Assembly: GCF_009914755.1 (NCBI RefSeq)
Contig: NC_060944.1
DNA length: 64,000 bases
Origin: the human T2T-CHM13v2.0 reference genome, Homo sapiens
Strand: one strand, 5' to 3'
In this document: positions 1,105 through 45,997 of the stretch, piece by piece
How the letters are laid out: the number at the start of each line of letters is the position of its first letter
Numbering within the stretch: position 1 is the first letter of the stretch
Notes under the pieces: model-generated
What the model was told of the DNA's origin: nothing
The model's database searches: none
Seen by the model: the letters and a program-made list of their open reading frames with translations, nothing else
Made by a program: the position numbers and the translations under genes

Positions 1105-1552
1105 ATATGGCAAAGTCCAGAATCAATGTGGGAGGGGACTACATAAGAGTATGAATGCCAGAAGCATGGTTCACTGGAAGCCATCAAATTAACAGTCTAC
1201 TGCAATTATTTTCATGGGGTCTAACTAACGGCTAGAGTAGGGAGAGTGGGCCTTCACCTGCAAGGTGAAACTGGATAGTCCCCAGGTCTCCCTACTCAGA
1301 ATGTTCTCTCCTGATGAACCAGCCCAGATTTGATGTTTACCTTTACTTTGCAGCTTTGGCCCAGCATGACCAGGCTTTCAGAGTTCACATTAGATCACAG
1401 CCCACAGTGCCAATCCAAATGACTGGTATGACTGACCATGGAGAAGGACTCCATGGTGGACAGGGGGACAGAATGTCCTGATTGGCCAGGCCTGGGTCAG
1501 GTGCCATCACCAGGGCCAGGGGGAATGAAGTCAGCCCCTTCTGAACTAATAG

Positions 1553-1790
1553 TAATAATATTAATACTAGATGACATTTGGGGGGTGTTTACTATGTGCC
1601 AGTCACTCTTTTAAACATTTTATCTGAATTAACTCATATAACCCAAAAACTCCATGAGGTAGATACTATTCTCCACATTTCTTATATGAGGCACAGAGAG
1701 GTTAGGAATTTTTCCAGGTTCACATAGCTGGTCAATGGCAGAGCCAATATTCAAACCTAGGCAGTCAGACTTTAGTTTCCATACTCTTTA
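1553..1790 (-). mobile_element. MIR SINE
   Basis: MIR core: tttactatgtgccag...gaggcacagagaggtt...ggcagagcca..attcaaacctaggcagtc. Confidence 0.75.
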
Positions 1791-1839
1791 TGGCCTGGAC
1801 CAAGAATAGGAGTAGAGGCTCACAGAAAAATCAGATGCT

Positions 1840-2143
<304 letters not shown>

Positions 2144-2294
2144 TCAGATGCTGTTAAGAATATTGGGAGATGATACAGCATAGACAAAAATGGTATCTAT
2201 ACCTTGCAACTGCCCACTAATAACCATAAAGACATGATGTGCCATGTAAAGCATGATCTAAGGAAAACCTTCATGTTCTTTATGCAGAAACTTG

Positions 2295-2607
2295 GGCTAG
2301 ATGTGGTGGCTCATGCCTGTAATCCCAGCACTTTGGGAGGCTGAGGTGGGAAGACCTCTTGAGCCCAGGAGTTCAAGACCAGCCTTTGCAACATAAGGAG
2401 ACCCTGTCTTTACAAAAACTTTTTTTAAAAATTAGCTGGGCATGGTGGTACATGCCTATAGTCCCAGCCACTCGGAAGGCTGAGGCAGAAGGACTGCTTA
2501 GCTCAGGAGTTCAATGCTGCAGTGAGCTATGACCGCACCACAGCACTCCAGCTTGGGTGACAGAGAGAGACTCTGTCTCAGAAAACAAACAAAAACAAAC
2601 AAAAAAA
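2295..2607 (+). mobile_element. AluJ
   Basis: Alu dimer with (AAAC)n tail. Confidence 0.92.
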
Positions 2608-4315
2608 TTGGGTAATTGGGTATCTTCCTCTCTACTCCAGATGGGATTCTTTTAGCCTTAGGTTCCCCTTATTGGATCCAAAGTTGAGAAGCTCTTGGGT
2701 CACTTAGTCAAGAATTCCTGAGGTATAGCAAATAAGAACATCTGGGACCACATGTTACCAACATCTGGTCACAAACTCTTAAAATAATATGGAGAAGTAG
2801 ATTTGGAGAAACAGATGAAGAACACGAGGGGGAATGTGCTGGGTGACACCCACAGAAATGCACCTGGGGAATCATGATTGAAGCAAGGATGATTGAAAAG
2901 TCTCTGCAAGTATGTGTGACACTTCTGAGTATTGGGGGTGGGGTGGGGGTGGAAGGCCTCATGTATCTGTTGTTTCCTGGGCACTCAATCCTTTTTGAAC
3001 AAGATGCTCTAGAGATGGTTATTCTCATTAGAACAAATGTTACTGACCCAATGTCTTCCTCGTTTATATTTCTTCTAATGTGCTTCTGCTTGAGCAAGTG
3101 AGCCCTTAATGTCCATTTCAATTAACATCACTGCATCTGATCTCAGTGGTGTCACTCATGGATGCAATGAGGGGCGGAGAAAGGTCACTGGGAAGTGGGG
3201 AGAGGTGTCCCCTCTTGTTTGAAGGCTTGAAGTCACTGGTGAGGGAGGTATTGGGAGGGAAGGTGTGGAATGATTTGCTCCCTACTTAATAAAGACCATA
3301 CTTTAAAGATGTCAGCCTGTCTTTTGTTTGATAAAACACTAATGTGAAGACCTAGTTGCAAGGCAGAAAGCAGGGACAAGGGCTCTGAGGGCTAAGCCAG
3401 TGAGGAACGGGAGACACACAAACTTGCATTGACTTATGAGAGCTTCCTCCATAACCTTGAGCTCCCTAGCCGTCAGTCACAGTGGGTGGGAACTGTATGC
3501 TCCAAATCTGCTATCCAGTATCCTGGGGATTCCCAGGGATGGCTCAAAGCTGGTGGTCTGACACCAACACTTCTGTGTGTGGCCTGATCTCAGCATGGAA
3601 ATGGGATGGACCAGAGTTTGGGGTGGGTGTAGCAGAGCAAGCCTCAGGGAGAGGTAGACAGTCACAACCTGCCAACCCTTCCTTGCTCTTGTTTTCCATC
3701 CTTCCTTCCCTTCCTTCCTTCCTAACAAGGGAATTTGTTCCCTTTGTGCCCTTCCAGAGGGAATTTGTTCAGGAAAGAGAAAATATGGATTTATGTTCTC
3801 CAAGACACAATCCTCAGGGATGATTCTCTCTCCTTTGAGAAGTCAGAGCATTTGTTTTTTCATCATCTTTGTCATCAATAACAATCATTAGAAGAGCTTA
3901 CTATTTCTTGAGCACCTTCTGTGTATCAGGGGACATTACATATATTATTTCTAGCCTTCACAGCAACCCTCAAGGTAAATGTAATTTATGCCCACTTTAC
4001 AGAGGAGGAAATTGGGGCTTAGAGTGCTTGAGGAGCTTGTCCAGTAAGTGGATTGAACTGGGCCCGGTTCATTCGATTTCTGGCTCCAATGTCATCAATT
4101 ACTTGCAATATATACTTGCAAGGGCCTGGCTCCTGGCTAAGACCTGCTAATGGATGCATCTGAAATAAGAAATGTCTTCTATTCAAGTTCCAGACGTCCA
4201 CATCAACAAGCATCAAACACAGAGTTTAACCTGCATCGTACTGGCAGTCAAGATGCAAGGGCTGTAGTCCTGGTTCTGCAACTCTTTTGATGGGCAGCTT
4301 TCAGTGTATATGTGT

Positions 4316-4350: not shown

Positions 4351-5152
4351 TGTCATTTCTCCATCTGTAAAATGGGCAAGTTTGACTAAATATCTCCAAG
4401 AGTCAGCTCAGTTCAATCCAATCTGACAGCACCCATGGGGCTTTCCTGTGTGACTGTGCCAGAAGGAAATAAAGATGGACAAGGCAGACCTCCATTCTCT
4501 AGGTGAGCTAAATGTGTGCTCTAATAGTTATACATAAAGAGCAACAAAGCTTGGAGAGCACGGCATCTCATTTAGACTTGGCCAGTGGCAATGTGTGTGG
4601 CACAGGAGATGAGGCAGGCTTCAGGGTGGAGGCGCCATTGGCAGTTGGGCTTGAAAAGGAAATAGAACATGTGGAGGTGGAGACAGGAGGAAGCTTTTCC
4701 CAGCCAACACCACATGGAGCAGAAGAACCACCTGGTCATTCTATAAAATTGTGAGAAGTAACAAATCATTGTTGTTTTAAGTCACTACATTTTCGGGATG
4801 ATTTCTTACGTAGTAATAGATGACAGACCCCAAAGGTGGGTGTGTGATTATAGGCTTTATCCTATAAAGGTCAGAGATTGCTCATTTTTAGACCACAGCC
4901 TACAGTAATTGGCCTGCAGACATAATTCATTTGGCTTGCACAGGGTTTTTAAAAATAGTTGAGCCAACATTTAGAAATTGGGAGATTTTATATGAAAATC
5001 CAGATTTGGGGGCTCTCTTGAAGAATCCTACATCTCAGCACCTGCATTCTAGGAACAGTATGCAACACACATCCTCCAGTTCATGACAGTGCTCTCCACT
5101 CCCTATTGTCTCATGCCTAACCTTCTTTCTAGCCCCTGTAGACACCTGAGGG

Positions 5153-6480: not shown

Positions 6481-8100
6481 GGTGATAACGGGGGGCTTTG
6501 AGGCAATTCCAGGAGGGCTACTTCTCACCCCCGTCAGGGAGGAGCCAAGACAGGGTTTATCCTCAAATGCAGATCCCCTGAGGTCAGGAGTTAGAGCCCA
6601 GCTTGGCCAACATGATGAAACCCCGTATCCACTGAAAATACAAAAATTAGCCGGGCATGGTGGTACACGCCTGTAATCCCAGCTACTTGGGAGGCTGAGG
6701 TACAAGAATCGCTTTGAACCCAGGAGGCAGAGGTTGCAGAGAGCCGAGATCGTGCCACTGCACTCCAGCCTAGGCGACAGAGCTAGACTCCGCCTCAAAA
6801 AACACACAAACAATGAACAGACAAATAAATGACAGAACAAGAAGACAAACTAGAGAACATCTTGAGACAAGGTGTTCAGGGAAGAGTTCTTTTGAGAAGG
6901 TGATATTAAAGCGAGTTTGGGGAAGAACGTCCCAGGCCTTGCGCTCAGGGTCGTCAACTCTTTGATTTCTCTTCCTTTTGAAGCAGGGCAGGGAGGTCAT
7001 CAAACAACAGAAGGACAATTATAACTGCTGGTATGGCAAAGCCAGGACTCTGAATTCAAACTCTGCTCCATTCTCAGGAATCCCGTCTGTTAAGCAGGTT
7101 CTGGGGAAGCGATGTGAGTCATGAAATCACAGGTCGGAGGAGGCATCGAGAATATGGTCAGTTCTCAACTTTCAGGGAAATCCATAGCTGAGGAATGAAG
7201 GACAACGGGCTTCTCGTGCTCTCACTAGGAAGACTGGTTCACCGGAGGCTGGAACACTGAAAGTGAGAAATCCCGACAGGAGAAATGTGTAGGAGAGAGG
7301 ACTAGCACCTGGATCAAGTTATAAAACATCTCCTGCATCTTTTTCGGAGATCACCCTTAGCGCGGCCTCTCCGCCCAGTCCCAGATTAGGCAGCGAAGAG
7401 CGACCCTCACCTTGTCTAGGTGGCACGTTCCTTAAAAGCGAAAGGACCAGGAGTTTCTTCCTGCCTCGTCTCTTCCGGATCCCTCCTGCACCGCCCACAG
7501 CCTGCAGATTTGAGCGCCATCTCCAGGCCCCGCCCACCTCAAGCACCACCCCTCAGTCCTTCCTTGGGGCACGCCTCCTTCCGGCACCCGCCCAGAGTAG
7601 CCACCCCCGGGGCCCCTCCTCCCCTCCCTGCTTCCGGGCCCGCCTCCTTCAGGCCCGCTTCCATCTTCCTCCCACTCTAAGCTTCTCTTCAGCCCCGCCT
7701 CCCTCCACCCGTGGCTCCGCCCTCTGGGCGATTCTCCATTTAGCCCCGCCCACAGCATCTCCTTTCAAGCGCTGTCCTGGTTCCCGGCTCTCCATCTCCT
7801 GCACGGCCTTCCCCACTGGTCCGGCGACCCTCTTCCCAGGGCCTCATCACCATCTTAGCTCCGCCCCTACTTCGGCTCCAAACCTGTGCAAGCTGCCCTC
7901 TTCCCGCCCCAGCCCCGCCTCCCCAAGCCGCGTCTCAGTCCCTCCTCCCTTTCAGGCCCCACCCTGGCCCCGCCTTCCTCCCGTCCCCGCCGAAGCTCTG
8001 GACCTTTCCAAAGCCAGGCTGAGAGGGTGGGGAGAGCCCATGCGCCTGGGAAGCCGGGCTGTTTCTGGGCGGGGCTGCAGACTCCTCGTGCTCGTGTCAC
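6126..8100 (-). ncRNA. RALY-AS1: Divergent antisense lncRNA from the CpG island (boundaries uncertain)
   Basis: RALY is known to have a head-to-head antisense lncRNA. Minus-strand signals here: donor AAG|GTGAGG (exon ends at 7411), acceptor tttctcactttcag| (exon resumes at 7256) and donor TAG|GTAAGT at 6126/6125. Confidence 0.5.
6572..6812 (+). mobile_element. 5'-truncated AluS
   Basis: Starts at gatcccctgaggtcagg and runs to an A-rich tail. Confidence 0.9.
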
Positions 8101-8249
8101 CGTGTCCTTCCCAGGAGACAGAGAAGGAGGAGAGCCCGGAACCAGGGCCGGAGCGGCGGGCGGAGCCGAGCTGCGGGGAGCCGCTCCGGGTGCCCCCACC
8201 CCCGCGCGCCTCAGTGGTGCCGGCCGAGGGCAGGGCTCGCGGTTGCGGG

Positions 8250-8482
8250 GCTCGCGCCGCTGTCAGTGCGGCGGGGCGCGCGAGCGGCGCCAGCTCGGGG
8301 CAGCGGAACCCAGAGAAGCTGAGGGGGCGGTAGCGGCGGCGACGGCGACGACGACGACTCCCGCGCGTGTGCCCAGCCTCTTCCCGCCGCAGCCGCCCTT
8401 TTCCTCCCTCCCTTACGTCCCCGAGTGCGGCAGTACCGCCTCCTTCCCAGCCGCGCGGCTTCCTCCAGACCTCTCGGCGCGG
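8250..8482 (+). other. RALY: RALY exon 1 (non-coding 5'UTR; start approximate)
   Basis: Matches my recollection of the RALY mRNA leader (...ttcctccagacctctcggcgcgg); consensus donor CGG|GTGAGT at 8482/8483; no ATG. Confidence 0.85.
8333..8358 (+). repeat. Mixed GGC/GAC trinucleotide repeat in the 5'UTR
   Basis: gcggcggcgacggcgacgacgacgac. Confidence 0.85.
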
Positions 8483-10599
8483 GTGAGTGGGGACTGCGGG
8501 CGTCTCCTTAGGGGTGCGGGGAGGGTGTGTGCTTTGTGCCTTTCCGTTCACTCACTTCTTCCGGCAGGCCGCTGCCTATTTTTAGAAACTTATTTCTGCC
8601 CTTCGGGGAGTCCCGGGAGCCCGAGTAACTCTAGGCCCCCTCCGCCGCTCCTTTCTCCCACTCGGACCCGCCGCCCCGGGTCCCCGGCCCCAGCCCTCCG
8701 CGCCCGGTCCTGCTCCCGGCGTTCCCTGTCTGCTCTCTCCGCGGGCCAAGTCTGGGCCAGTAGTTGGCTGGGTGGGCCCGCGCCCGCTCGGAAGTTGGAG
8801 TCTTTTGTGCTCGTGCCCCGCCCCGCCCGGCGAGGGGCGGAGGGAGGGGAACGGAGGCTGCTCCGGGGAGGCCGCAGGCGGGCCCGGCCGCGGCTGCTTC
8901 CGGCTCTCCTAACCCGGACTGGGTCTACGGGCTCCCGGAGGCGCGCAGAGCTTGTCCTGCCTCGGCTCCCGCCTCTTCTGGGCTCTTTGCACGCCTTGGG
9001 CTCGGAGAGAAACAACAACGGGCCCTCGAACTGGGGCCGTATCCGCGTTTCACTCAGCCTCCTTGGCGGCCGAGTCTTAGTTTGCCTCTCGGTGACATGG
9101 GGGGAAAGAAGGAAACTCGCTTTGCGGGGTGTTCGTGGATTCAGGGAGGGAACTAATATGTGAAAGAAGTGTTTAACACCGACAGGGAACATTTAATGAG
9201 ACTTCACCCAGGAACTTCCCAAGCCTTATTTCATTTAATGTTCACAACGGCCTTCTGGTTTATCCTCATTTACAAAAGCAGAAATTAAGGCGCAGAGGGG
9301 TCAAGTAATTTTCTCCAAGTCACAGTAGCCACAGAAGTGCAAAGGAGTGGTGCCAGTACCTATTATTTATTAATATTTCCTGGTGTGAGCATGTATCATC
9401 TCTTAGTGCAGAGGGCATTTTTACCTAGCCTTGGGTCACACCATTTAATTAGGGGCATAACTCTGGGTTTTCCCTGACTTCTGGGCCGTTGTCCACTATA
9501 CTGTGGATGAAATCCCATTCTGGGGTTACCATAGTTCTAAAGGGAAAGGTTTGGATGAATTCCTTGCTAGTGTTGCGGCAGTTAGAAGTTGATGGATGCA
9601 GACTCCAGGTCTCAGACACAACTCAAATTCCCTGGGGTTTTGGCTCAAGGAAGCTTTGAGACTGTAAACGGTGGGATCCACCCTTTAGTTTGTGTGTGGT
9701 GTGTTCCTCCTCCCAGACCTTGCAGGTTCTCTGTGTTTAGATTTATCGATCCTAGTTTGATGGGGGTTAGGGGGAGTAGCTCAAGTCATCTGCCTTCAAA
9801 CAAATATTACTCCTATTTTCAGATAAGGCCCAGAGTGGTTAAAGTGAACTAAAATTAACTTTGGCAAATGTTCCAGTTTTTCAATGTGATCCGGTTGGAG
9901 GGAGTGTCTAAAAATCAGGCAAGGGAGTTTCTGGGCCAGGTCTTGAGGAGTCTCTTGATGTTCACATTAGTTCTTTGGAGTCTGGTACGTCTGTGGTGCC
10001 TGGCCAGGATTCTGGATTTACGAGTCCTATGTGGGAGCTGAAAGGGGTCTTACCATCTGGTCCAACTTTTTCATATCTGCCTTTCCCCGCTTCCCTGTTA
10101 ACTGAACCTTGGAAAGGGGAAGTAAGTTGTCTGAATTCAGACTGCCTTAGTGTCAGAGTGAGAACTAAAATTTCCAGTCTTCTTCCTCCTAATCCAGTAA
10201 TATTTTTATTTCTCCCATACCTTGCCACTTCTTAAAAGGGCACGAAACCACTTATTCAGGTCTTAAGGTCAGGAATCCTGAGTAATTGGAAATCCCAAGG
10301 AAGTTTTATAGTCCCCACCCCTTTCTGTGCCTTATGGTTAGTATTAAGAGGAGGCCAGGTTTAAGCACAGGTGTACTAGTTCTCGTAAGTCACCACTTCG
10401 GTTTTATGTGTTTATGGCTTATATACTCTTCCATAACCATTATCTGATTTAATTTCTAATCCATTTCTGTGAGGTAGTTTGCAGAGCTTGGTTTATGTCT
10501 CTTTTTTTACTGTGAGGGAATGGAGACACAGCATAGCACTTGCCTTAGATGACAGAATGAGTAAGTAGTGAGGACAAGACACCTCTCTGGAGCAGAGGA

Positions 10600-10960
10600 T
10601 TTGATTTGACATCATAAACTGAGCCACTCATTGTGGCTCTCTGAGCCTCAGTTTCCTTATCTGTAAACTCATAGGGTTGTTGTGGGGATTGTTAAGAAAA
10701 TGGCTATGAAAGTGCTTTATAGTGGTAGTAATAATAGCTAAATTTATTAAGTACTTAACGTGTACCACCAGTCAATGGACTGAGGACTTTATGGACTATA
10801 TTACTAATTCTTAGAGCAACCTATGAATTAAGTACTATTATTATCCCTGTTTTATAGAAGAAACAGGCTTAGAGAGGTTACATTACCTGCCTCAGGGTCA
10901 TGTAACTGGTAAGTGGCCATGGCAGTATTCAGACTGCAGACAGTATAACCTTAAAGCTGG
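10600..10960. mobile_element. MIR fragments in both orientations
   Basis: ctctgagcctcagtttccttatctgtaaa and gaaacaggcttagagaggtta cores. Confidence 0.65.
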
Positions 10961-24947: not shown

Positions 24948-26136
24948 TGATTACTGAAACATCATCCAGTATGTGGAGTACTGTGGTAATTTCCATGACA
25001 ACTGATCCTGATTTTCCAGATAAAGAGAGGAAGCTAGTAAGTGTTAGGAACTCAAAAAGCGTAGTAAGCTAAGTTCTTGTGATGCTAAGTAGAATTTTTA
25101 GCTGAAAGGACCTTTCAGCAGCAACTGCCTGATTAAACCTCTTCCTCTTATAGGTCTGGAGAGGTTAAGCAACTTGCCTAAGGGATTGCTGTGTTTGTGG
25201 AATAAACTCTGGATCCTCAGCTTAGTATCTCTCTGTGCCTCCTATTCTGCATGACTTTTTTCATTATATCTCGGCTGAACTGTGAGCTCTATGAAGGCGG
25301 AAACCATGTCTGTCTTGTTGATGAGTGTTTTCCCAGAGCCTGGCATAGGATCTAAGTATTTTTTGAGTGAATGAATAAACTGGGTGGGGGGGGGGTTCTC
25401 AAACTGGAACACATGGCTGCATAGTAGATGATACATGAAATCACAGGATAAAACATACATCTTCCTGAAGTGTCAGTATACTTATTTTTTCAGAGTTGGA
25501 TTAAATATTATAACTGGTAATTTAAAGTTTGCTTTTAACTTTAAATATTTTTATGGAATGAATGATAAATTAGCATGAATTCTTGAGATAAAGTGAGAAA
25601 GCATCAAATAAGTTACAGGATTATAGCAGGCCCTTTGACTTCTACCCCAGGGTGGGTCTGGCATCGCCAGACCTCTGACATTTTTAAGAGCAGCTAGAAA
25701 TCTAATTTTTTTAAAAGTGAGATCTGATTTTGAATGTTGGCAGTTAACTCAGAGGTTTTTAAGTAAATTTTTACATATCAGACAAAAACATATCCTTGGG
25801 CCTAAACATCTGCTTGTGACCTATGAGATAAAATACAGGTCTGAGCAGTAACTAGACTTTGGATGGGGCCAAGATAGGTGGTGGTGTCAGGGATATCTCC
25901 TATTCTGAGTCTGGCTCCTTCAGATTTGAAACTAACCATAAGCAGGAGTGGAAAGAATAAAGCTAGAGACTTGATTAGAACAAATTCCCACATTAAACAT
26001 CCTCTGTAGGAAACAGCTTCTATAACTCACAGGCTACCATATCCCTTCTCGTTGACTCCCCTTGTTTTGCAGATGAAACTAAGGTCCAGAGAAGAAACCA
26101 GAGCTTTCTTGTAGGACCCTTAAGAAGCAGCCATGG

Positions 26137-27265: not shown

Positions 27266-27877
27266 CAGATAGTCCCTGGTTTACAGTTTGACTTACTGAT
27301 TTTTTGACTTTATGTTGGTTACAAAAGTGATATGCATTCAGTAGAAACGGTACTTGGACTACTCATACAGCTAGTCTGTTTTCACTTTCAGTAAAGTATT
27401 CAATAAATTATGTGAGATATTCAACACTGTATTATAAAATAGGCTTTGTGTTAGTTGATTTTGCTCACCTGAAGGCTAGTGTTAATGTTCTGCGCATATT
27501 CAAGGTAGGCTAAACTAAACTAGGGTGTTTGGTAAGTTAGGTGTATTAAATGCATTTTCCCAGCCTGGGCAACATAGACTTCATCTCTTTTTTAAAACAA
27601 ACAAACAAACAAAATAAAAAAAAAAACTAGCTCGCATAATGGGGCATTCCTGTAGTCTCAGCAGCTACTTGGGAGGCTGGGGTGGGAAGATCGCTTGAGC
27701 CTAGGAGGTTGAGGCTGTAGTAAGCCTTGATTGTGTTACTATACTCCAGCTTAGGCATCAGAACGAGACCTTGTCTCAAAAAAAAAAAAAAAAAAAAAAG
27801 GCATTTCGACTTACAGTATTTTCAGCTTACAAGGGGCTTATTGGGATGTAACCCTGTTGTAAATTGAGCAGCATCTG
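27266..27877. mobile_element. MER47/Tigger5-type DNA transposon containing a 5'-truncated AluJ (~27559-27799)
   Basis: TA-flanked cagat...atctg termini; gcatttt/gcatttc duplicated around the Alu. Confidence 0.7.
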
Positions 27878-28283
27878 TATTTCCCCTAAGTAGAAATCCC
27901 CTTATCTTCTTATCCCCTTTACCTGACAGACTCCTGTTTATCTTTCATATCAATTCCAATGCCACTTCCTCAGGGAAGCTTTCCCTGATCACTACAGAAG
28001 CAGAATTAATTTTGATCAAATAAAATACAGGATTTATAGCAGGCCCTTTGACTTCTAGGACTGCTGTAGTTGTACTCTAGTGCTGTGTCACACCCAAATC
28101 CTCTCTCATTCATTGGATCGAGACAGTATAGGCCAGGGGATAGTGTGCTACTTATCTCTATTTCCCTTGTGTCTCTGAAATAGGCTTGGCACAAATAGTA
28201 CTTACAAAATGAATGATGGAAATGTGTATGCATTGATACTTATAGTATAGTTTGGTGTTGAGTGCTACAGATGAAATATGACA

Positions 28284-29320
28284 GTGCGCTTTAAAGAAGA
28301 GGCTTAATTTGGGGGTGACTAAAATAAAAAATTATTGACTTGAGGGTCTCTGTTTTGCAAGAATACATAATTAGCTTAAATAAGCAGCAAAAGGTTAGTT
28401 TTAATTATGTAGCTTCTGTTAATATTAAGTGTTTTTTGTCTGTTTTACCTCAATTTGAACAGATTAAGTTTGCGTGCATGCTGGAGATGCCTCAGAACAC
28501 ATGAGTAGCCCGTACTAGATCTTGGGAACGTGGATCTTAGAGTCACTTTGGAATAAGTTCTTATATAAATACCCCCAGCCTTTTGAGAACGGGGCTTGTT
28601 AAAGGACGCGTATGTAGGGCCAGTACCTACTGGCAGTTGGATTCAGGGAAATGGGATTGACTTGGCCTTTGGTCCTTTGGTCATAATTTTAAAATATGGG
28701 AGTAGAAAACAACAAAGAATGGAATGGATGCTTAAAACAATGAAAGAGCATTTATCATTTGTCTCTTGAATGTAGAGTTTGTTTTTGATTTCATAATTCT
28801 GCGGGTAAACGTGACAGTTAAAGTGGTGGATTATGTATATGTATTATAATTTAGAAATTCCATTTTATAATTTTACTATTCCAAGGTGAAATAATGCATT
28901 TAAATTTGGGATTTGGGTGGAGTATTATGTTTAACTGGAGTTGTTGTCAAGTATGAATCCCTCAGGGAAAAAAAATTCTGTTTTAAAAAGCAGTCTGATT
29001 CTTAGCTCTTGAAACTATTGTTACTTAAATTTCCAATAATTAAAAATTAAAAATTTTAAAATTAGAATTGCCAATACTTTGACCTTTGAGAAGGGTTTCT
29101 TAGAAATACATTTAGTAATGTCCCCAAGACATTAGTCTTACATTTAAACTTTTTTCTTTAAAACATGGTATTGGTTGTTAACCTTTACACAGTTCTGAGT
29201 ACTGTTAATATCTGGAAAGTATCTTGAGATATCAGTGGAAAGCTAAACAGTCTAAATTTAACATGAAATACTTCTTTATGATTCAGAAAATAAAATCAGA
29301 TTTTTTCAAAGTCAAAAAAA
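28284..29320 (+). pseudogene. Processed retrocopy of a non-coding RNA 3' end, recognised as XIST-like
   Basis: AATAAA at 29289-29294; oligo(A) at 29314-29320; TSD gaaatatgaca (28273-28283)/gaaatgtgaca (29321-29331); no ORF. The sequence closely resembles my recollection of the XIST 3' terminus (...aaaataaaatcagattttttcaaagtc). Confidence 0.7.
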
Positions 29321-30208
29321 GAAATGTGACAAAGTGCTCTGGAAATTTACTGGAATTCTTGAGAGAGAACTAACTGGAAGAAATCTTGGAAGCTTCTAGA
29401 AGCTGGTAGCATTTGAGCTTGTCCTTAAAGATTCAGGAGTTCAGTTGGCAGAGATGGTGGGAAGAACATTCTAGATGGAAGGAATGGTAGGAGTAAAAGT
29501 AATGAGGAAGTACGGAAGCCAGGCCCTACCTACTAATCCACCTGTCCCCCTTATTCAGAATTTCTGCCAAATGTGTGCTAAATCTCTGTGGGCCAGCCTA
29601 AAGGATATTTACTTTTCTTCCTATTCTTTCCTTCCCTTCTTCCTACCTCTTTTGTCCTTTTTGCCTTTTATTTTTTGTTTCTTCTCAATATTTCCCCCTT
29701 TTTTTTTAAATCTCCCCCTTTCTCCAGTCCTTCATAAAAAAACAAAAAAGCAAAAAACTTTATTTACCTTTCTCTACCTACTTCTTTTTTGCACTTTTCC
29801 TAGGTAACCCAAGAAATCCAAGTCTTTGGGTGGAGATGTGAATCAGCCATACAATGTTTAACTCCAAATAACACCTCCCCTTGTGAAGCTGAGAAGTAAT
29901 TGAGGCATAATTGCTTCTCATCTGTCTCTTGTGTTTTATTGGCATAGACTTTTTTTTTTTTAACCTCCCACAGTGCTGGGGGTGTCATTATCATTTTATT
30001 TTTCGTAGTTGTCAAAATGTCAATTTTAATGAGAAATTTCTGCAGATAGGTTTGCCCTTGAGTGGTAGGAGCCTTCAGGCAAAGCCAGGGCTAGATGAGT
30101 CAGGAATGTTCATGGATCTGTTTTCTCATGCATACAGGTGTATAGGCCACACAGAGGCAGACACCTACTTTTCCCCATCCCTACAGGCTCAATGCTTTGC
30201 AACATGTG

Positions 30209-31506: not shown

Positions 31507-32184
31507 TCACCTTTATAAACTCTTACCTAATGTGATGCTAGGTACATCGTATAGGCCCCCTCTTCAGATGGAAAAATCACTTATTGAATACCTACTAAGT
31601 GTTAAATACTGAGCCTTATTGTGTTTATTTCTCCTTGCAACCTACTGGCATAGGAAGGAAAGGAAACTGAAGCTCAGAAAAGTCAAAATGAAGTGACTTG
31701 GCTGCCCATTGTCATATAGCATAATCTCTATTGTACTATGCTATTAATACATTTCTGAGCATTTGCAACACCGATTCCAATCTGATGAACTGTTTTCTAC
31801 CAGGGCCCTCTCTTACTTACCCTTCTACAGACTGAACGGGAGCTCAGGCTGTCTCCCTGGAGCTGTTCAAAGACTGGAGGAAATTCTTTAAAACCTGTGG
31901 TAAGGCAGGTGCAGCGGGTGGAGAGGGATGCTCTGCTTGCTTTTACTTTCTCTTGCTTTCTCATCTCCTTTCCAAGTTCCCTAAGGGGTGAGCAGGCTCT
32001 AATGGGAGAGATCAATCATCATTTGGGATCAATGGGAAGGTTTTCTCCTCTACGGAGTGCAGAGTCAGGTTTCTGAACTGGCCTTGTGCAAGGAGAGGGA
32101 AGGGATTCATAACTGGATGCATTGGAGAACCTGCAGGCTTAACATGCTCAGCAGCCAGTGTGGTCAGACCAAATTCCTCCTATA

Positions 32185-45914: not shown

Positions 45915-45997
45915 GTGAGCCCTATTCCCAGAGGCAGGTGGTGCTGACCCTGTAACCCAAAGGAGGAAACAGCTGGCTAAGCTCATCATTGTTACTG
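45915..45997 (+). other. RALY: RALY exon 2 (83 nt, non-coding 5'UTR)
   Basis: Branch point CCCTAAT; acceptor ttctctctctattgtag|; donor CTG|GTGAGT; matches the recalled RALY mRNA leader; no ATG. Confidence 0.85.

What the first reader, a model, noticed from the sequence alone, without database searches (positions are those of the whole stretch)
28273..29331. Autosomal retrocopy of a lncRNA 3' end, apparently XIST, in RALY intron 1
Seen in sequence: about 1,030 bp of AT-rich, ORF-free DNA that resembles no repeat family I recognise. It ends with AATAAA, 19 nt and an oligo(A), and is bracketed by an 11-bp TSD with one mismatch. Removing it rejoins an L2-like sequence (gtgctacagatgaaatatgaca|aagtgctctgg). 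These are hallmarks of L1-mediated target-primed reverse transcription of a 5'-truncated polyadenylated RNA. From memory, the body closely matches the terminal kilobase of human XIST (e.g. gagaacggggcttgttaaaggacgcgtatgtaggg; aaaataaaatcagattttttcaaagtc). Inference: XIST is nuclear and chromatin-bound, so it is an unusual substrate for retroposition. The copy lies sense to broadly expressed RALY, so XIST-like RNA would be made in both sexes as part of the pre-mRNA. It could also cause cross-mapping or cross-hybridisation that mimics sex-biased signal at this locus.
Basis: partly seen in the sequence, partly recalled or inferred. Interest (0 to 1): 0.88.

Follow-up and report, generated by a model that had tools for sequence, protein, structure and literature searches.

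The report
ACTR2 3'UTR retrocopy, not XIST
The 1-kb insert in RALY intron 1 is an ordinary, decaying, 5'-truncated retrocopy of the end of the ACTR2 (Arp2) messenger RNA, and it has no similarity to XIST.

Summary
The structural observation holds. Window 28273-29331 is an AT-rich, ORF-free insert of about 1.04 kb. It ends in AATAAA, 19 nt and an A-run, and is flanked by an 11-bp direct repeat with one mismatch.

The proposed source, XIST, is wrong. A search of the window's own genome gave no match on X or Y. A direct BLAST against 50 kb around XIST exon 4 gave only chance matches of 24 nt or less, best E 0.043.

The insert instead matches the last ~1,035 nt of the ~2.5-kb 3'UTR of ACTR2 on chromosome 2 at about 94-95% identity. 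It ends at that gene's poly(A) site. The chr2 locus is the intron-containing parent. Its last exon follows a splice acceptor and encodes Arp2 residues 339-394, identical to PDB 6yw6_B. Upstream exons are separated by introns that a longer chr22 retrocopy lacks.

It appears to drift neutrally, and I date it at roughly 15-30 Myr. Interest is low.

The parts
28273..28283 (+). 5' target-site duplication, GAAATATGACA
   Evidence: sequence. It matches 29321-29331 at 10 of 11 positions. Random control: 9 of 20000 pairs.
28284..29313 (+). Body of the retrocopy: the last ~1.03 kb of the ACTR2 3'UTR, 5'-truncated. Clear homology begins at about 28286.
   Evidence: 94% identity to G000:C2:65279887-65280921. 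MAFFT alignment with 971 of 1018 ungapped positions identical to the chr2 parent; 93.9% over 1041 alignment columns by BLASTN.
29289..29294 (+). Inherited ACTR2 polyadenylation signal AATAAA, 19 nt before the end of homology
   Evidence: It is conserved in the parent and in both sibling retrocopies.
29314..29320 (+). Remnant of the poly(A) tail: 7 A, of which the first 2 are also present in the parent genome after GTC
   Evidence: The parent continues with unrelated T-rich DNA, whereas all three retrocopies continue with A-rich sequence.
29321..29331 (+). 3' target-site duplication, GAAATGTGACA

Best explanation
Window 28284-29320 is a 5'-truncated processed pseudogene (retrocopy) of the ACTR2 (actin-related protein 2, Arp2) mRNA. 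It consists only of the last ~1,035 nt of the ~2.5-kb ACTR2 3'UTR plus a short poly(A) remnant.

Inferred mechanism: L1 endonuclease nicked the target in what is now RALY intron 1. The ACTR2 poly(A) tail primed reverse transcription, which stopped about 1 kb in and caused the 5' truncation. Repair of the staggered break duplicated 11 bp of target.

The copy has no coding sequence. Its own lineage has changed about as much as its sibling copies and the parent UTR, so it is most likely a neutral, non-functional passenger in the RALY intron. The insertion probably dates to a catarrhine or hominoid ancestor, roughly 15-30 Myr ago.
For: 1. Source of the sequence. The genome-wide search found 4 full-length places at 93-100% identity: the element itself, C19, C2 and C22. 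It also found one older fragmented copy on C22 at 81-88%. None lay on C23 or C24.

2. The C2 place is the last exon of ACTR2.
- A polypyrimidine tract and AG acceptor precede L009 8233.
- L009:8233-8400 translates to 56 aa identical to Arp2 residues 339-394 of PDB 6yw6_B, E 3.4e-33.
- Contiguous positions 888-1030, 1032-1163 and 1160-3827 of the longer chr22 retrocopy map to chr2 blocks 912-1054, 4703-4834 and 8227-10922. These are exons separated by ~3.6-kb and ~3.4-kb introns.
- That chr22 copy carries broken Actin-family ORFs: Pfam PF00022, E 3.5e-10 and 1.1e-13.

3. Shared 3' end. All three retrocopies lose homology with chr2 at the same point, 19-21 nt after AATAAA, and continue with A-rich sequence. 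The parent continues with unrelated DNA.

4. Target-site duplication. It matches at 10 of 11 positions, against 9 of 20000 random pairs.

5. Neutral decay. In 1008 ungapped columns, lineage-specific substitutions number 19 (chr20), 24 (chr19), 30 (chr22) and 17 (parent). K2P distance to the parent is 0.048.

6. Both strings quoted as XIST occur exactly in the chr2 ACTR2 3'UTR.
Against: - Intron loss cannot be shown for this copy itself, because it lies wholly within the parent's last exon.
- The A-run is only 7 nt, and 2 of those could be templated by the parent.
- The nick site (AT|GAAA) only approximates the L1 endonuclease consensus TT|AAAA, which I recall rather than tested.
- No primate genome was available, so no empty orthologous site was seen. 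The age rests on substitution rates recalled from memory.
- The parent 3'UTR carries about as many private changes as the copies (17 against 19-30), so identity alone does not single out chr2 as the source. That call rests on the exon-intron structure and the intact ORF.
Confidence: 0.96

Rival explanations
1. Retrocopy of the XIST 3' end.
For: No tool result supports it.
Against: - No match on C23 in the genome-wide search, although that search reported matches down to 81% identity elsewhere.
- XIST exon 4 was located at C23:72264460-72264584(-) with Rfam RF01881 at 128.5 bits.
- BLASTN of the element against C23:72244000-72293999 (50 kb, no N), with word sizes 11 and 7, gave only matches of 44 nt or less, best E 0.043. 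The same settings gave a 1041-nt, 93.9% hit to chr2.
- The two quoted strings are absent from that 50 kb even with up to 5 substitutions allowed, and are exact in ACTR2.
- That the 50 kb spans the whole ~32-kb XIST gene rests on my recollection of the gene's size.
Confidence: 0.003
2. Secondary retrocopy: the RNA template came from a transcribed sibling ACTR2 retrocopy, for example the chr22:25.15 Mb copy, rather than from ACTR2 itself.
For: Of 11 two-against-two sites, 7 group chr20 with the chr22 copy, against 2 with chr19 and 2 with the parent.
Against: - An older fragmentary chr22 copy served as outgroup. Of the 4 chr20+chr22 sites it covers, 3 carry the outgroup state, so they look ancestral. 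That fits changes on the parent lineage after both copies were made.
- The outgroup covers few sites, so this is weak.
- Nothing shows that the chr22 copy is transcribed.
Confidence: 0.04
3. DNA-level (segmental or ectopic) duplication of the ACTR2 3' end or of another copy, not retroposition.
For: None specific.
Against: Homology starts inside the UTR and stops at the poly(A) site, followed by an A-run and a target-site duplication. Flanks on both sides are unique in the genome. BLAST of 1.5-kb flanks against the other loci found only short repeat-like matches of about 70-84% identity, not colinear extension.
Confidence: 0.005

Closest known systems
L1-mediated processed pseudogenes (retrocopies) of housekeeping mRNAs, 5'-truncated class
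   Same: A copy of a mature mRNA 3' end that terminates at the parent's poly(A) site, with an A-tail remnant, a target-site duplication, 5' truncation and neutral decay.
   Different: Nothing essential. It holds 3'UTR only, with no coding sequence, so protein-based pseudogene pipelines would miss it. This may be why the RefSeq table supplied with the finding lists nothing here.
Sibling ACTR2 retrocopies in the same genome: C19:~20.395-20.400 Mb, C22:~25.148-25.152 Mb, and an old fragment at C22:50.8787-50.8802 Mb (-)
   Same: Same parent and the same 3' end point. Divergence is similar for the chr19 and chr22:25.15 Mb copies, at 93.6-95.4% pairwise identity.
   Different: The chr19 and chr22 copies are near full-length. 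They include 5' sequence and broken Arp2 coding sequence, and chr19 is interrupted by ~300-bp insertions. The chr20 copy is only the terminal ~1 kb. The chr22:50.88 Mb copy is much older, at 77-88% identity, and fragmented.
XIST lncRNA 3' end
   Same: Only generic properties: AT-rich, non-coding, polyadenylated.
   Different: No sequence similarity.

Membership tests
L1-mediated processed pseudogene / retrocopy | Colinear homology to the mature mRNA of a parent gene located elsewhere | tested here: met
   About 94-95% identity over ~1.03 kb to the ACTR2 3'UTR on C2. Parent identity was established by splice acceptor, intact Arp2 C-terminal ORF and exon-intron structure.
L1-mediated processed pseudogene / retrocopy | 3' end coincides with the parent's polyadenylation site and is followed by a poly(A) tract absent from the parent locus | tested here: met
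   Homology ends 19-21 nt after AATAAA. The copy has 7 A against 2 A in the parent, and the same end point is seen in 3 of 3 retrocopies aligned.
L1-mediated processed pseudogene / retrocopy | Target-site duplication flanking the insert | tested here: met
   11 bp matching at 10 of 11 positions. Random control: 9 of 20000 pairs.
L1-mediated processed pseudogene / retrocopy | Absence of the parent's introns | tested here: inconclusive
   The copy lies entirely within the parent's last exon, so it spans no intron position. The longer chr22 sibling lacks the two introns tested.
L1-mediated processed pseudogene / retrocopy | L1 endonuclease-like nick site (TT|AAAA-like; consensus recalled from the literature) | tested here: inconclusive
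   The site reads AT|GAAAT at the 5' edge of the duplication. This is A-rich after the nick but not the canonical hexamer.
L1-mediated processed pseudogene / retrocopy | Empty orthologous site with a single copy of the duplicated target in an outgroup species | not testable with these tools
   No primate or other mammalian genomes are held. Only the window's own genome could be searched.
XIST-derived retrocopy | Sequence homology to XIST RNA | tested here: not met
   No C23 hit. Best E was 0.043 against 50 kb around XIST exon 4.
   No interspersed-repeat library is held. The flanks match only themselves in the genome at this sensitivity.

The most novel reading that the evidence does not exclude
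The copy lies in sense orientation in RALY intron 1 and keeps an intact AATAAA, with a TG-rich stretch just downstream in the target DNA. It could therefore act as a cryptic intronic polyadenylation site that truncates some RALY pre-mRNAs before any coding exon. Alternatively, the ACTR2 3'UTR sequence embedded in abundant RALY intronic RNA could titrate factors or microRNAs that normally bind the ACTR2 3'UTR. Nothing here excludes either, but the neutral-looking substitution count (19 private changes in 1008 sites, similar to the siblings) argues against selection for either role.
Probability: 0.03. Interest if true: 0.3.

Novelty: new member of a known kind. Interest (0 to 1): 0.06.

Why it matters
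It matters little biologically. It is one more dead, 5'-truncated retrocopy of a highly expressed housekeeping mRNA.

Correcting the source removes the interesting part of the claim, which was retroposition of a chromatin-bound lncRNA and a sex-biased artefact.

One practical point remains. The copy covers the 3'-terminal kilobase of ACTR2 at about 95% identity, and two longer copies exist on chr19 and chr22. Reads from 3'-end-focused RNA assays of ACTR2 could occasionally be assigned to RALY intron 1 by lenient aligners. Any such signal would not depend on sex.

Tried and rejected
- XIST origin: rejected.
- Rfam scan of window 27800-29800 at E up to 1: 0 matches.
- Flank searches to find paralogous 'empty' repeat copies, or to test the L2 claim. 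Each flank (28040-28284 and 29321-29620) matched only itself. Within the window, the 5' flank had one 43-nt, 93% match at 25603-25644 and the 3' flank had none. The L2 claim is left open.
- Literature. 'ACTR2' with 'processed pseudogene' gave 4 papers, 3 listed, and none appeared from title or abstract to concern a human ACTR2 retrocopy. In one of them (10.1101/2025.05.07.652701) I read the matching passages, and the two terms occur independently. 'ACTR2P' gave 1 unrelated mouse paper, seen as a listing only. 'ACTR2' with 'retrocopy' gave 0 papers. I found no printed description of this copy. Pseudogene catalogues and supplements were not searched.
- Ordering the retroposition events with the old chr22 fragment as outgroup gave too few informative sites (4 polarisable of 7) to be firm.

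Full report
**Observation**

- An 11-nt direct repeat flanks the insert: GAAATATGACA at 28273-28283 and GAAATGTGACA at 29321-29331, matching at 10 of 11 positions.
- The insert ends with AATAAA (29289-29294), 19 nt, and 7 A (29314-29320).
- GC content is 27-40% across it.
- No ATG-initiated ORF of 40 aa or more lies inside it. The single ORF listed for 28200-29400 is 28006-28233 on the minus strand.
- A repeat this good at both edges is unlikely by chance. Of 20000 random site pairs 1047 nt apart in the window, 9 reached 10 of 11 matches with up to 3 nt of slack at each end.

**What the insert is a copy of**

I searched the window's own genome with 28285-29320. All 6 first-look candidates were scored.

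| Place | Identity |
|---|---|
| C20 (the element itself) | 100% |
| C19:20399353-20400384 | 94% |
| C2:65279887-65280921 | 94% |
| C22:25151005-25152030 | 93% |
| C22:50878699-50880179, minus strand, four fragments of one older copy | 81-88% |

Nothing was found on C23 or C24.

Extending the loci showed how far each copy runs. The chr20 copy shares only this ~1 kb with the others. The chr2, chr19 and chr22 places share much more upstream sequence. chr2 and chr22 are colinear over 2.7 kb, and chr19 and chr22 continue further 5'.

**The chr2 place is the parent gene, ACTR2**
- Homology to the retrocopies starts at L009 8227-8233, directly after a polypyrimidine tract and AG.
- The reading frame L009:8233-8400 gives 56 residues identical to residues 339-394, the C-terminus, of human Arp2 in PDB 6yw6_B (E 3.4e-33). 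A stop codon follows at 8401-8403.
- The 3'UTR therefore runs about 2,517-2,519 nt, from C2:65278403 to about 65280919-65280921.
- Three contiguous segments of the longer chr22 copy (888-1030, 1032-1163, 1160-3827) map to chr2 blocks 912-1054, 4703-4834 and 8227-10922. These are exons separated by introns of about 3.6 and 3.4 kb.
- The chr22 copy carries frame-broken Actin-family ORFs (PF00022, E 3.5e-10 and 1.1e-13).
- So chr2 holds the intron-containing gene, and the chr19, chr22 and chr20 places are processed copies of its mRNA.

**Anatomy of the chr20 copy**

In the four-way MAFFT alignment, clear homology to the ACTR2 3'UTR starts at about window 28286, within 3 nt of the 5' duplication. 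It runs to 29313-29315.
- The parent genome reads GTCAA and then continues with unrelated T-rich DNA.
- All three retrocopies instead continue with A-rich sequence from that same point. This marks the ACTR2 cleavage/poly(A) site.
- The copy thus represents the last ~1,035 nt, about 41%, of the 3'UTR and no coding sequence.

Together with the target-site duplication, this is the standard signature of L1-mediated target-primed reverse transcription with early termination. Each mechanistic step is inferred from this signature and not observed. The nick site (AT|GAAAT) is only loosely like the canonical TT|AAAA motif, which I recall rather than tested.

**XIST tested directly**
- Rfam Xist_exon4 (RF01881) placed XIST at C23:72264460-72264584, minus strand, at 128.5 bits.
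- I fetched C23:72244000-72293999 (50 kb, no N). By my recollection of a ~32-kb gene, this covers all of XIST and its 3' end.
- BLASTN of the element against it, with word sizes 11 and 7 and E up to 10, returned only short chance matches. The longest was 44 nt at 75%, and the best E was 0.043.
- The same settings returned a 1041-column, 93.9% alignment to chr2.
They are absent from the 50 kb even with up to 5 substitutions allowed.
- The XIST attribution was a false memory.

**Evolution**

Over 1008 ungapped columns, 904 are identical in all four sequences.

| Lineage | Private substitutions |
|---|---|
| chr20 | 19 |
| chr19 | 24 |
| chr22 | 30 |
| parent (chr2) | 17 |

- The copy has drifted about as much as its siblings, which gives no sign of constraint.
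- The distal ACTR2 UTR has itself changed. Of the 10 parent-private sites covered by the old chr22 fragment used as outgroup, 9 show the majority state in the outgroup.
- Of 11 two-against-two sites, 7 group chr20 with chr22. Of the 4 of these that can be polarised, 3 are ancestral. This weakly suggests that chr20 and chr22 were made before chr19, rather than one from the other.
- K2P distance between the copy and the parent is 0.048.
- This lies between the human-orangutan and human-macaque neutral divergences, about 3% and about 6% as I recall them. That suggests insertion some 15-30 Myr ago. It could not be checked, because no primate genomes are held.

**Context and function**
- The copy lies in sense orientation in RALY intron 1. 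It sits between exon 8262-8482 and the alternative exon 31809-31899 or exon 45915-45997 (hub table).
- It overlaps none of the listed RefSeq functional elements.
- Rfam finds nothing in 27800-29800.
- The most likely state is a non-functional passenger.
- The boldest reading not excluded is use of the inherited AATAAA as a cryptic intronic poly(A) site, or decoy activity of ACTR2 UTR sequence within RALY intronic RNA. I give this about 3%.

**Left open**
- The claim that the flanks are L2-like. No repeat library is held, and the flanks are unique at the search's sensitivity.
- The empty-site test in other primates.
- Whether pseudogene catalogues already list this copy.
- In print I found no description of it. 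'ACTR2' with 'processed pseudogene' gave 4 papers, none relevant as far as title, abstract or passages show. 'ACTR2P' gave 1 unrelated paper. 'ACTR2' with 'retrocopy' gave 0.

**Verdict**

The structural observation is real and the retroposition mechanism is right, but the source gene is wrong. This is an ordinary ACTR2 3'UTR processed-pseudogene fragment of low interest.

Noticed in passing
L011 6488-6933 (G000:C22:~25147587-25148032), outside the window: Directly upstream of the chr22 ACTR2 retrocopy lie frame-broken ORFs of an Arf/Arl-family small GTPase (Pfam PF00025, E 8.9e-32 for 6488-6772). This may be a second processed pseudogene abutting the ACTR2 copy, or a chimeric retrocopy. The chr19 copy does not share this part.
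   Followed up: partly
L015 ~6699-8182 (G000:C22:50878699-50880179, minus strand), outside the window: A much older copy (77-88% identity) of the same terminal part of the ACTR2 3'UTR. It is broken into four pieces by inserted sequence that matches multi-copy ~300-bp repeats in the other loci. ACTR2 mRNA has therefore been retroposed at least four times.
   Followed up: partly
L013/L014 (G000:C19:~20395150-20400384), outside the window: The chr19 ACTR2 retrocopy is near full-length but interrupted by ~300-bp insertions. These resemble repeats found many times in the neighbouring DNA and are Alu-sized; the family was not tested.
   Followed up: no
window 25603-25644 and 28015-28057: A 43-nt, 93% identical match between the 5' flank of the insert and a site 2.4 kb upstream. 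It is probably a fragment of a shared old repeat and was not identified.
   Followed up: no
G000:C2:65279885-65280921 (ACTR2 distal 3'UTR), outside the window: The human ACTR2 distal 3'UTR carries several private indels and 17 private substitutions relative to the state preserved in three retrocopies. The last kilobase of this UTR therefore seems to evolve at close to the neutral rate.
   Followed up: partly
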